Source: a virus
Taxonomy: Duplodnaviria; Heunggongvirae; Uroviricota; Caudoviricetes
DNA length: 26,412 nucleotides
IMG/VR virus record: IMGVR_UViG_2529292890_000002
Span: 1 to 26,412 of that record
Reading direction: 5' to 3' (one strand)
Below the pieces are notes generated by a model, which worked only from the letters and a program-made list of their open reading frames with translations, had not been told where the DNA came from and did no database searches. The translations under genes were made by a program, and so were the position numbers. The stretch's first letter is position 1. Every line of letters starts with the position of its first letter. Below are positions 3,503 through 4,653 of this stretch, in pieces.

Positions 3503-4474
3503 ATGATCCGCCCGTTCATCAAATGGGCAGGGGGTAAAACCCGTGTCCTCCCTGACCTGCTGCCGCATCTTCCTAAAGCTGACTGCCTGATCGAACCGTT
3601 CGTAGGCGGCGCATCGGTATTTCTGGCGACTGAATACCGCCGCTATGTGCTGGCTGATATCAACCAGGATCTTATTAACCTGTATCGGGAAGTCACCCGT
3701 TACCCGGACTTAGTGATCGATGCTGCCCGCGAATTGTTCAACAGTAAGAATAGCCCGCAGGGATACAACGAAGTCCGTGCCGCGTTCAATAAGCAGGTGG
3801 GTACGGTAAAAAGCGGTGGGTTGCGTTATGGCGCTGAAATGGCGTGCATTATGCGCGCTGCTCAATTCCTGTATCTGAATCGCCACGGTTATAACGGCTT
3901 ATGTCGATACAGCCGGAAGACCGGCTTTAACGTGCCGTTTGGCAAGTATAAGAGCGTCTACTTTCCTGAAAATGAAATCCGCCTGTTTTCCGAAAAGGCC
4001 AACGATACAAAAGCAATATTTCTTTGTGCGCCGTTCCAGCGTTCTCTACAGGTCGTCACGGGTGGCGATGTTCTCGTTTACTGCGATCCGCCTTACCTGC
4101 CTGAAAGCAAAACAGCCGATTTTACCCAATACCACACCGAACCATTCACGGAAGGCAACCACCGCCAGTTAGTCCAGGCACTGCTGGAAGTTAACCGTAA
4201 GCATGGCGTGAAGGTCGTCATTTCCAACAGCGATACCGAAGCCACCCGCGCGATTTATCAGCCCTTCAAGATGCACGAAATCAGCGTGCAACGTTCCATC
4301 AGCACCGACAAAGACAACCGCCAGAAGGCCAAAGAAGTGATCGGCGTGCTGCCTGTCTGCGACTGCTGCGGGCGTTACGGCGGCGGTTGCCCTGATTGTG
4401 GCGCCGTGATGGGTGATGCGACTTACAACGCGATGGTTGCGGCGGGCGCGTTTGACGATCTGGAGGCTTTTTAA
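3503..4474 (+). CDS. dam: DNA adenine methyltransferase (Dam-like, N6-adenine class) with Cys-rich C-terminal extension
   Basis: N-terminal FIKWAGGK, then [10 protein letters not shown] (AdoMet-binding) and catalytic DPPY; C-terminal [15 protein letters not shown] extension. Confidence 0.85.
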   Translation: [323 protein letters not shown]

Positions 4475-4653
4475 TGAATCTTATAGACGCCTGGATCGTT
4501 GAAATCATAAGCGTGAGTCGTGGCGAGATTGTGCCGTATTGGTTGGTTGAGGCGAAAGTAACAGCTTATGGAAGGGAGTCAATAACCACAATTCTGAAGA
4601 AATCAGAAGAGGAAGCCAAAGCCGTTAAAGTAGGGGATGTAGTTCAAATATGA
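4474..4653 (+). CDS. Hypothetical 59-aa protein, coupled between dam and A
   Basis: ATG overlaps Dam stop (TAATG) and its stop overlaps the A start (ATGA); translation MNLIDAWIVEIISV...DVVQI read by hand; not in the ORF track. Confidence 0.4.
   Translation: MNLIDAWIVEIISVSRGEIVPYWLVEAKVTAYGRESITTILKKSEEEAKAVKVGDVVQI

What the first reader, a model, noticed from the sequence alone, without database searches (positions are those of the whole stretch)
3503..4653. Dam-type methyltransferase with a cysteine-rich C-terminal extension, coupled through a 59-aa ORF to replication gene A
Seen: canonical FIKWAGGK / [10 protein letters not shown] / DPPY motifs in an alpha-class order, plus a C-terminal [15 protein letters not shown] tail of about 45 aa beyond the catalytic domain; stop/start overlaps chain dam (TAATG), a 59-aa ORF (ATGA) and A. 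Inference: a prophage-encoded orphan methyltransferase tied to replication timing, or possibly anti-restriction; the Cys cluster could be a zinc ribbon.
Basis: partly seen in the sequence, partly recalled or inferred. Interest (0 to 1): 0.35.

Follow-up and report, generated by a model that had tools for sequence, protein, structure and literature searches.

The report
Phage Dam methylase with portable zinc-knuckle tail
This is an ordinary, already-annotated GATC DNA methylase of a P2-like prophage, but its 40-residue cysteine tail is a small, undescribed module that also sits inside RecE exonucleases and other phage early proteins, where its role is unknown.

Summary
ORF 3503-4474 (+) is a 323-aa Dam-family N6-adenine methyltransferase. 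It overlaps a 59-aa ORF (TAATG), which overlaps replication gene A (ATGA), in the early operon of a P2-like prophage 93% identical to Enterobacter phage phiT5282H. The catalytic core (aa 1-282) aligns with E. coli Dam and keeps its GATC base-contact residues. No nuclease gene is adjacent, so it is an orphan methylase.

The tail (aa 283-323) is absent from E. coli, T4 and DpnM Dam. It has four invariant cysteines (CxxC-x6/7-CxxC), a short helix (GDATYxxM) and an acidic end finishing in Phe. The tail is common in P2-like prophage Dams of Enterobacterales and is under purifying selection.

The Cys4-GDATY core also occurs about 20 residues before the nuclease domain of RecE-family proteins, and at the C-terminus of unrelated small phage proteins. 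An exhaustive profile search found only 37 clusters. There is no Pfam family, solved structure or literature mention.

My reading is a metal-binding docking module, not part of catalysis; the partner is unknown. The 59-aa ORF is lineage-restricted and not a conserved partner. I found no support for a replication-timing role. Interest is modest.

The parts
3289..3501 (+). 70-aa early-operon ORF immediately upstream of dam (stop is 1 nt before the dam ATG); function unknown
   Evidence: ORF list. phrog_21140, E 4e-43, unknown function. Annotated as hypothetical in phiT5282H and SEN5.
3503..4474 (+). dam: 323-aa Dam-family N6-adenine DNA methyltransferase (stop codon included)
   Evidence: PF02086 E 2e-62. 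TIGR00571 271.7 bits. E. coli Dam 2G1P E 4.5e-70. Foldseek TM-score 0.92 on the target. 96-98% identical to annotated Dam proteins of Citrobacter, Enterobacter and phiT5282H.
3503..4348 (+). Catalytic core, aa 1-282. Motif X KWAGGK is at 3521-3538, motif [11 protein letters not shown] at 3593-3622, motif IV DPPY at 4085-4096. GATC-contact residues are K7, Y130, N131, L133, R135 and P145.
   Evidence: Residue-by-residue alignment to E. coli Dam. AlphaFold pLDDT is mostly above 88. The roles of the E. coli Dam residues are from my recollection of Horton et al. 2006.
4358..4399 (+). Cys4 knuckle pair C286-x2-C289-x6-C296-x2-C299 ([14 protein letters not shown]), with rubredoxin-type signatures CxxCG and CPxCG; predicted metal site
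   Evidence: The four Cys plus G294 and D298 are invariant in 67 sequences. Shared with RecE C517/C520/C528/C531. NCBIfam NF007259 positions 527-552 and phrog_20376 match this stretch.
4400..4441 (+). Conserved [14 protein letters not shown] segment; the only predicted helix of the tail (aa 302-313 or 305-313)
   Evidence: Helix in both AlphaFold runs at low confidence. CPDCG[AP]VMGDATY is shared across Dam, RecE-like and small proteins. 31 of 39 nt are identical to K-12 recE, with most differences at third codon positions.
4442..4471 (+). Distal tail [14 protein letters not shown]: acidic stretch ending in Phe. It also carries the Shine-Dalgarno GGAGG (4462-4466) of ORF59.
   Evidence: Of 108 homologue tails of at least 20 aa, 75 end in F, L or W, and 61 of those ending in F/W/L/M have D/E in the preceding four residues, across several tail classes. 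Sequence.
4385..4385 (.). Approximate mosaic junction inside the knuckle codons. Upstream is about 90% identical to Salmonella phage SEN5; downstream is unrelated.
   Evidence: Megablast coverage stops at query position 1099. The 60-nt sliding identity falls from 0.92 to 0.63 to 0.48.
4474..4653 (+). 59-aa ORF, translationally coupled on both sides; lineage-restricted, function unknown
   Evidence: phrog_8110 E 8e-13. No Pfam, NCBIfam or PADLOC hit. Full-length homologues are at least 88% identical. Among 50,697 phage records only phiT5282H carries it.
4650..7037 (+). Gene A: P2-type rolling-circle replication initiator (nickase)
   Evidence: PF05840 E 2e-103. phrog_91 'nicking at origin of replication' E 2e-259.

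Best explanation
The ORF is a working, GATC-specific, orphan Dam methyltransferase of a P2-like temperate phage. It is transcribed with cox, the other early genes and replication gene A from the lytic early promoter. It therefore acts while the phage genome is being copied.

Its likely job is to keep fast-replicating phage DNA fully methylated at GATC when host Dam is limiting. That would protect the DNA against GATC-directed cleavage (MboI/DpnII-type restriction, MutH nicking) and against SeqA binding. This role is inferred, not shown.

The 41-residue tail is not part of the catalytic fold. It is a separate accessory module with three elements:
- a Cys4 metal-binding knuckle pair (zinc most likely, iron not excluded);
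- one short helix (GDATYxxM);
- an acidic end finishing in a free C-terminal Phe, which resembles the tips of SSB and T7 gp2.5.

I infer that the tail is a docking or tethering device. It would hold the enzyme on a partner that is not gpA and not ORF59, most plausibly a host DNA-replication or repair hub. The same Cys4-GDATY core would do the same job in RecE-family exonucleases and in several small phage early proteins.

Status of each step:
- Shown: family membership, fold, conserved contact residues, operon layout, conservation of the tail, its distribution, and selection on it.
- Inferred: metal binding, docking function, identity of the partner, and biological role.

Confidence by claim:
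- 0.9 that it is an active GATC Dam;
- 0.8 that the Cys4 site binds metal;
- about 0.4 that the tail is a protein-docking module;
- about 0.15 that the partner is an SSB-tip-binding protein.

The overall confidence of 0.6 is for the combined statement: an active orphan GATC Dam plus a non-catalytic, metal-binding accessory module.
For: **Catalytic core**
- PF02086, TIGR00571 and the E. coli Dam structures all match.
- K7, Y130, N131, L133, R135 and P145 align with E. coli Dam K9, Y119, N120, L122, R124 and P134.

**Orphan status and operon**
- The P2-type switch is present: repressor at 1182-1541 (-) and cox at 1603-1884 (+).
- No promoter or terminator signal above chance lies between cox and A.
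- No nuclease is adjacent, and the best PADLOC hit is the orphan-methylase model.

**Tail as a separate module**
- E. coli Dam stops aligning at aa 282.
- Tail-less relatives of 277-280 aa exist at 64-65% identity.
- A mosaic breakpoint lies inside the knuckle.
- Tail pLDDT is 42-66 with a single helix.

**Tail is functional**
- Four Cys are invariant.
- dN is 0.164 in the tail against 0.356 in the body, with dS saturated.
- The protein motif is kept against recE while third codon positions differ.

**Portability**
- The module sits mid-protein in RecE-like proteins, ahead of either a PD-(D/E)XK nuclease or an Rv2179c-like 3'-5' exonuclease domain.
- It sits at the C-terminus of unrelated small proteins.
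- One such small protein is encoded in a prophage region that also encodes RecT, Dam and RdgC.

**Docking rather than DNA binding**
- The tail has a net charge of about -5 (sequence).
- 75 of 108 long tails end in F, L or W, and most are preceded by acidic residues. This holds across at least four different Cys-rich tail classes.

**Partner is not gpA or ORF59**
- Phages with 97% identical gpA and 96% identical Dam cores carry different tail classes.
- ORF59 is missing from most tailed relatives.
Against: - No metal-binding, interaction or activity data exist, and no partner is identified.
- AlphaFold gives no confident fold for the tail, either in the full protein or alone.
- The acidic-Phe end is not part of the module as it occurs in RecE or in the small proteins, so the two features may have different roles.
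- In this window the codons for LEA also form the ribosome-binding site of ORF59. That could explain part of the local conservation. However, a relative keeps ...AEGF with about 270 nt to the next gene.
- Rapid swapping of tail classes on near-identical backgrounds fits an arms-race surface as well as a conserved docking site.
Confidence: 0.6

Rival explanations
1. The tail is an auxiliary nucleic-acid-binding zinc knuckle. It would increase the affinity or processivity of Dam (and of RecE-type nucleases) on DNA.
For: All large carriers with a recognisable domain are DNA enzymes. Short Cys-rich knuckles often bind nucleic acids (general knowledge). The module sits next to the DNA-handling domain in RecE.
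Against: The tail is acidic, with net charge about -5, and it is followed in RecE by a strongly acidic linker. The only basic positions are one or two Arg/Lys. No aromatic or basic position is conserved within the knuckle apart from the Tyr of GDATY.
Confidence: 0.15
2. The acidic tail is an intramolecular DNA mimic. It would fold back on the DNA-binding cleft of Dam and gate activity, as the acidic C-termini of SSB, T4 gp32 and T7 gp2.5 do.
For: The composition is acidic with a C-terminal aromatic residue in most tail classes. The analogy with phage ssDNA-binding proteins is from general knowledge.
Against: AlphaFold shows no confident packing of the tail onto the core. The Cys4-GDATY core also works mid-protein in RecE-like proteins and on small proteins that have no DNA-binding domain to gate.
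Confidence: 0.1
3. The variable Cys-rich tail is an arms-race surface. It would be either an anti-defence element that binds a host immunity protein, or a part that host defences sense, which is why it is swapped so often.
For: At least four tail classes are exchanged on nearly identical Dam and gpA backgrounds. A recombination junction lies inside the knuckle. The module occurs on many small early proteins of unknown function in temperate phages.
Against: No PADLOC or anti-defence family match covers the tail. Within class A the tail is more conserved than the enzyme core, which is not what diversifying selection predicts.
Confidence: 0.15
4. The tail has no function of its own. It would be leftover coding sequence created by modular recombination at the dam/downstream-gene boundary, kept partly because it holds the ribosome-binding site of the next gene.
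For: A mosaic junction lies in the tail. GGAGG for ORF59 lies in the last codons. Tail-less Dams exist in the same clade.
Against: Four Cys are invariant across 67 sequences. Tail dN is well below dS and below the core dN. The same peptide is conserved in unrelated proteins with third-position differences. The tail is kept where the next gene is about 270 nt away.
Confidence: 0.05

Closest known systems
Dam of Enterobacter phage phiT5282H (YP_009879857, gene 'dam') and the Dam proteins of P2-like (Peduoviridae) prophages of Enterobacterales
   Same: Same gene in the same place: 93% nt identity, and the tail is 96% identical. The order 70-aa ORF, dam, 59-aa ORF, gpA is the same. Hundreds of database entries are annotated 'Dam family site-specific DNA-(adenine-N6)-methyltransferase'.
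   Different: Nothing of substance differs. The tail is present in these records but is not annotated or discussed anywhere I could find.
E. coli Dam (PDB 2G1P, 4RTJ and related entries), the host GATC maintenance methylase
   Same: Same fold (Foldseek TM-score 0.92 on the target, 41-42% identity), same motif order, and the same base-contact residues.
   Different: E. coli Dam ends 11 residues after the shared core and has no cysteine cluster. The phage enzyme has a 14-residue insertion at about aa 101-115 with low pLDDT, plus the 41-residue tail. It scores 279.5 bits, below the 441-bit equivalog cutoff of NF008152.
RecE / exonuclease VIII of the Rac prophage and related lambdoid phages
   Same: They share the about 29-residue Cys4-GDATY module: RecE 516-544 [29 protein letters not shown] against Dam 285-313. 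Identity is about 80% over 24 residues.
   Different: Nothing else is shared. In RecE the module is internal, about 20 residues before the nuclease domain (564-866). It lies within the N-terminal region that a 2023 review calls 'of unknown function' (PMC11611040). [quoted passage not shown]
C-terminal tips of SSB (…DDDIPF) and T7 gp2.5 (resemblance recalled from memory)
   Same: An acidic run ending in a free C-terminal Phe, on a flexible tail of a DNA-transaction protein. Variants such as …ERFVDEDAF, …WESEENPIPL and …NAEPF occur in relatives.
   Different: There is no OB fold and no homology. Binding to any SSB-tip receptor is untested, and the penultimate Pro is present in only some variants.
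Eukaryotic Dnmt1 recruited to PCNA by a PIP box (functional analogy only)
   Same: A maintenance methyltransferase carrying a short docking peptide outside the catalytic domain, which would place it at replicating DNA.
   Different: Unrelated sequence and fold, a different base and target, and the partner here is unknown.

Membership tests
Dam family (alpha-class N6-adenine DNA methyltransferase, Pfam PF02086 / TIGR00571) | Full-length match to the D12-class methyltransferase domain above the curated cutoffs | tested here: met
   PF02086 scores 211.7 bits against a cutoff of 22 and covers profile positions 1-253 of 253. TIGR00571 scores 271.7 bits against 114.85.
Dam family (alpha-class N6-adenine DNA methyltransferase, Pfam PF02086 / TIGR00571) | Alpha-class motif order: AdoMet-binding motifs X and I, then the target-recognition region, then catalytic motif IV (DPPY) | tested here: met
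   KWAGGK at aa 7-12, [10 protein letters not shown] at aa 31-40, YNGLCRY/NVPFG at aa 130-147 and DPPY at aa 195-198.
Dam family (alpha-class N6-adenine DNA methyltransferase, Pfam PF02086 / TIGR00571) | GATC specificity: conservation of the E. coli Dam base-contact residues K9, Y119, N120, L122, R124 and P134 | tested here: met
   All six are conserved in the alignment to 2G1P. The phosphate contact N126 is Ser here. The residue roles are from my recollection of Horton et al. 2006.
Dam family (alpha-class N6-adenine DNA methyltransferase, Pfam PF02086 / TIGR00571) | Methylation of GATC adenine in vitro or in vivo | not testable with these tools
   Needs an enzyme assay or complementation of a dam-deficient strain.
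Host-type Dam equivalog (NCBIfam NF008152) | Score above the equivalog cutoff of 441 bits | tested here: not met
   279.5 bits. It is a phage paralogue, not the chromosomal dam orthologue.
Orphan (solitary) methyltransferase | No cognate restriction endonuclease gene adjacent | tested here: met
   The neighbours are a 70-aa ORF, ORF59 and gpA. The best PADLOC model is oMTase PDLC03729, E 7e-96.
Classical zinc ribbon | Two CxxC knuckles on beta-hairpins separated by a beta-strand-forming spacer (typically 10 or more residues), matching a zinc-ribbon profile | tested here: not met
   The spacer is 6-7 residues. No beta-strand appears in either AlphaFold run, though at low confidence. No zinc-ribbon Pfam family is hit at E 0.01 or better. 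PDB profile hits to zinc fingers and TFIIB ribbons are at chance level, E 0.045 or worse.
Cys4 metal-binding knuckle pair (rubredoxin-type CxxCG / CPxCG signatures) | Four invariant Cys in two CxxC knuckles with the Gly/Pro signature | tested here: met
   C286, C289, C296 and C299 are invariant, and so are G294 and D298; G290 and P297 are conserved in at least 90% of the sequences. The same pattern holds in non-Dam carriers.
Cys4 metal-binding knuckle pair (rubredoxin-type CxxCG / CPxCG signatures) | Stoichiometric bound Zn or Fe | not testable with these tools
   Needs ICP-MS or spectroscopy on purified protein.
RecE / exonuclease VIII family | N-terminal Exonuc_VIII region (PF06630) and a C-terminal PD-(D/E)XK nuclease domain | tested here: not met
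   Only profile positions 527-552 of NF007259 match, at 22 bits against a cutoff of 1269. There are no PF06630 or PF12684 hits. It shares a module with RecE but is not a member.
SSB-tip-like C-terminal docking peptide | Acidic residues followed by a hydrophobic or Pro residue and a free C-terminal Phe | tested here: inconclusive
   The window ends [10 protein letters not shown]. 53 of 108 long tails end in F, and 61 of those ending in F/W/L/M have D/E within the four preceding residues. Binding is untested, and the ORF59 ribosome-binding site overlaps these codons.

The most novel reading that the evidence does not exclude
The Cys4-GDATY unit is a previously unrecognised portable recruitment domain of temperate enterobacterial phages. 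It would bring otherwise unrelated early enzymes to one shared host hub at replicating or broken DNA. Those enzymes include Dam, RecE-type 5'-3' exonucleases, Rv2179c/DnaQ-like 3'-5' exonucleases and several small proteins. If so, it would give the first assigned function to part of the RecE N-terminal region. It could also explain why full-length RecE, but not the nuclease domain alone, supports efficient linear-linear recombination.
Probability: 0.2. Interest if true: 0.65.

Novelty: new variant of a known kind. Interest (0 to 1): 0.36.

Why it matters
The methylase itself adds nothing new. Phage-borne GATC Dams are well known, and this one is already annotated in a 93%-identical phage.

The useful by-product is the tail. 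It is a roughly 30-residue cysteine module under purifying selection, shared by P2-like Dams, RecE-family exonucleases and small early proteins. It has no Pfam family, no solved structure and no mention in the literature I could search.

The module lies in the part of RecE whose function has stayed unknown although full-length RecE is used in direct-cloning recombineering. A defined, testable motif there is therefore a practical lead: four cysteines to mutate and a 30-residue bait for pull-downs.

The finding also shows how phages swap short C-terminal cassettes on an otherwise constant enzyme.

Tried and rejected
1. **Short-query protein search.** A word-index search with the 61-aa tail returned only two fragments, so it was uninformative. 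I replaced it with tblastn against phages and an exhaustive profile search.
2. **gpA as the tail's partner.** Rejected. Tail class does not track gpA type.
3. **ORF59 as the partner or a conserved coupler.** Rejected. It is lineage-restricted and replaced by other genes in relatives.
4. **Recent DNA transfer between recE and dam.** Rejected. 31 of 39 nt are identical and most of the differences are at third codon positions.
5. **GATC enrichment or an oriC-like cluster as a sign of replication control.**
   - The twofold excess over dinucleotide shuffles shrinks to 1.12-fold against a trinucleotide model.
   - No cluster exists.
6. **Beta-clamp-binding motif.** Considered and rejected by inspection. 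The candidates were Y-x-x-M-[FVL] and the terminal xxEAF, against the consensus QL[SD]LF recalled from memory. The Gln and the second Leu are not conserved.
7. **Structure of the tail.** Confidence was low both in the full protein (pLDDT 42-66) and alone with a 33-sequence alignment (mean 63.7). I therefore ran no fold search on it.
8. **PDB profile search for the module.** Only chance-level hits. The best was Methanosarcina MtrI at E 0.045.
9. **Literature searches.** I searched for RecE plus zinc, full-length RecE, P2-like Dam and the motif strings. None describes the module.
10. **A second copy of the module in the window.** None found.
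Full report
**1. The observation**

The raw sequence shows both overlaps: TAATG between dam and ORF59, and ATGA between ORF59 and A. A GGAGG ribosome-binding site for ORF59 (4462-4466) lies inside the last dam codons.

The motifs KWAGGK (aa 7-12), [10 protein letters not shown] (aa 31-40) and DPPY (aa 195-198) are present in the alpha-class order. Family scores are decisive:
- Pfam PF02086 scores E 2e-62 over aa 8-266.
- TIGR00571 'dam' scores 271.7 bits against a cutoff of 114.85.
- gpA matches PF05840 at E 2e-103.

**2. Where it sits**

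The window is a P2-like (Peduoviridae) prophage. Reading along it:
- integrase at 132-1112 (-);
- repressor at 1182-1541 (-), divergent from cox at 1603-1884 (+);
- a DUF4761 ORF, a Fil-like ORF and a TerB-like ORF;
- a 70-aa ORF, dam, ORF59 and A;
- two accessory genes;
- portal and terminase on the minus strand, then tail genes.

Region 3289-4700 is 93.4% identical in DNA to Enterobacter phage phiT5282H. There the same gene is annotated 'dam' and the gene order is identical. No promoter- or terminator-like site above chance separates cox from A. dam is therefore part of the lytic early operon. From established P2 biology, the C repressor shuts that operon off in lysogens.

**3. The catalytic core**

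E. coli Dam structures match at E 4.5e-70 over aa 3-282. The AlphaFold model has mean pLDDT 82.5, with most of the core above 88. It superposes on E. coli Dam with a TM-score of 0.92 on the target.

In the residue alignment, the E. coli Dam base-contact residues K9, Y119, N120, L122, R124 and P134 correspond to K7, Y130, N131, L133, R135 and P145 here. All six are conserved. Their roles are from my recollection of Horton et al. 2006. I therefore predict GATC specificity.

No nuclease gene is adjacent, and the best PADLOC model is 'orphan methyltransferase'. The protein scores below the cutoff of the chromosomal-dam equivalog model (279.5 against 441 bits), so it is a phage paralogue.

**4. The tail is real, separate and selected**

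E. coli Dam has 11 cysteine-free residues after the shared core. This protein has 41.

Among the 120 best homologues, which come from many genera of Enterobacterales, 74 carry a CxxC...CxxCG tail. In an alignment of 67 such proteins with 60% mean column identity, C286, C289, C296, C299, G294 and D298 are invariant.

Against a same-class homologue, tail dN is 0.164 and core dN is 0.356, with synonymous sites saturated. Tail-less Dams of 277-280 aa exist in the same clade, so the tail is not needed for the fold.

AlphaFold gives the tail low confidence in the full protein (pLDDT 42-66) and alone (mean 63.7). It predicts only one helix, over [10 protein letters not shown].

The 6-7 residue spacer, the lack of strands and the lack of any zinc-ribbon Pfam hit argue against a classical zinc ribbon. 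The CxxCG and CPxCG signatures are those of rubredoxin-type knuckles (my knowledge). Zinc and iron cannot be told apart here.

**5. The unexpected part: the module is shared with RecE and others**

NCBIfam and PHROGs both flagged aa 285-310 as matching the middle of exonuclease VIII models. tblastn of the tail against 50,697 phage records hit two groups:
- Dam genes of P2-like phages;
- the interior of recE genes in Rac-like, Stx and other lambdoid phages, at 65-80% identity over about 24 residues. An Actinobacillus recE and an Aeromonas phage hypothetical protein were also hit.

In K-12 RecE the module is residues 516-544, [29 protein letters not shown]. That is about 20 residues before the nuclease domain (564-866). 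It lies inside the N-terminal region that a 2023 review describes as of unknown function (PMC11611040).

The 39 nt encoding [13 protein letters not shown] are 31/39 identical between dam and recE, and most of the differences are at third codon positions. The peptide is therefore conserved by selection, not by recent transfer.

An exhaustive profile search of 1.84 billion representative proteins found only 37 clusters at E 1e-3 or better. Three kinds of carrier appear:
- tailed Dams;
- RecE-like proteins in which the module precedes a PD-(D/E)XK nuclease, an Rv2179c-like 3'-5' exonuclease, or neither;
- about a dozen small proteins with unrelated N-termini and the module at the extreme C-terminus.

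One of these small proteins is encoded in a prophage region that also encodes RecT, Dam and RdgC.

The module has no Pfam family. No solved structure contains it; the best PDB hit is at chance level. I found no mention of it in the searchable literature.

**6. What the tail is probably for**

The tail has a net charge of about -5, so direct DNA binding is unlikely.

Among 108 homologue tails of at least 20 aa, 53 end in F, 14 in L and 8 in W. Of those ending in F, W, L or M, 61 have D/E in the four preceding residues. This holds across at least four different Cys-rich tail classes. Examples are ...DDLEAF...WESEENPIPL...SDNPETW and ...ERFVDEDAF. That pattern recalls the C-terminal tips of SSB and T7 gp2.5 (from memory; not tested).

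The partner is not gpA. Salmonella phage SI7 (class A tail) and a Citrobacter prophage (class C tail) have 97% identical gpA and 96% identical Dam cores. The window (class A) and SEN5 (class C) have 92% identical gpA.

It is not ORF59 either. Relatives have nothing, a C5 methylase or other small ORFs between dam and A. ORF59 is a narrow family whose full-length relatives are at least 88% identical, and phiT5282H is the only phage record that carries it.

A mosaic junction with SEN5 falls inside the knuckle codons at about position 4385. Distal tails are therefore exchanged as cassettes.

My best reading is a metal-stabilised docking module aimed at a host factor. I hold it with moderate-to-low confidence. 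The rivals are DNA binding, autoinhibition, an arms-race surface, and a non-functional remnant. They are listed with their tests.

**7.

'Orphan prophage methyltransferase' and 'Cys cluster binds metal' stand.

'Replication timing' finds no support:
- GATC sites number 173. That is twice the dinucleotide-shuffle expectation but only 1.12 times a trinucleotide expectation.
- No oriC-like cluster exists, and gene A has the average density.
- Coupling to A is simply the packed early-operon layout.

'Anti-restriction' remains plausible but untested.

The proposed lysogen-versus-cured methylome test would be uninformative. The predicted motif is the one the Dam+ host already makes, and the gene lies in the repressed lytic operon.

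**8. Verdict**

This is a known enzyme in a known place, already annotated. It carries an accessory module that appears undescribed and is shared with RecE. I classify it as a new variant of a known kind, of modest interest. The main value is a concrete, mutable motif in the unexplained N-terminal region of RecE.

Noticed in passing
window 7196-8194 (+) and 8198-8836 (+): Two accessory genes lie between gene A and the portal gene. From memory, this is the position of tin/old in P2 and a known hotspot for anti-phage systems. The first is a 332-aa protein with an M78/IrrE-like peptidase domain (PF06114 E 1e-7; weak PADLOC hits to PD-Lambda-2_B, capP and RmrA). The second is a 212-aa partner with no family beyond phrog_15597. 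They may be a defence or abortive-infection pair.
   Followed up: partly
window 2591-3064 (+): A TerB-like protein sits inside the early operon (PF05099 E 3e-14; phrog_632 'tellurite resistance' E 7e-62). That is an unusual cargo for this position. The equally long antisense ORF 2612-3085 is probably a mirror artefact.
   Followed up: no
window about 4385 (inside dam codons 294-296): DNA identity to Salmonella phage SEN5 drops from about 0.9 to background within the Cys-knuckle codons. SEN5 continues with a different, longer Cys-rich tail (...CAQCCPGIAACEEGWSFDCCGNCDICEPSDNPETW) and a second methylase gene. The conserved knuckle sequence seems to serve as a recombination joint.
   Followed up: yes
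window 3709-3830 (dam aa 70-110): This is a second variable patch in dam. It is only about 50% identical in DNA to SEN5 while the flanks are 87-98% identical. It overlaps a 14-residue insertion relative to E. coli Dam with pLDDT below 50 at aa 103-109.
   Followed up: no
whole window: CTAG is strongly depleted: 6 observed against 21 expected from trinucleotides. GATC is the most over-represented 4-bp palindrome, but only 1.12-fold. The twofold GATC excess over dinucleotide shuffles is largely a trinucleotide (probably codon-usage) effect.
   Followed up: yes
RecE-like proteins P0128, P0129, P0136 and L007 3214-3768: Some 'RecE' proteins carry an Rv2179c-like 3'-5' exonuclease domain (PF16473, E 1.5e-67 in P0128) after the Cys4 module, in place of the PD-(D/E)XK nuclease. 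Others (P0137, P0141) show no detected nuclease domain. A free-standing PF16473 gene lies two genes upstream of the tailed dam in a Klebsiella P2-like prophage.
   Followed up: partly
L008 5537-6541 (metagenome prophage, gene after the module-bearing P0126): The gene immediately downstream of a small module-bearing protein has a weak DnaJ-type CXXCXGXG hit. Cys-rich glycine knuckles may therefore recur in this early region.
   Followed up: no
protein P0002 (71 aa, NCBI): This short ORF begins with the last residues of the Dam core and the first knuckle ([20 protein letters not shown]). It then continues into an unrelated sequence with a second CxxC (GGVCAECKEK). It is probably another recombinant or truncated tail variant.
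   Followed up: no
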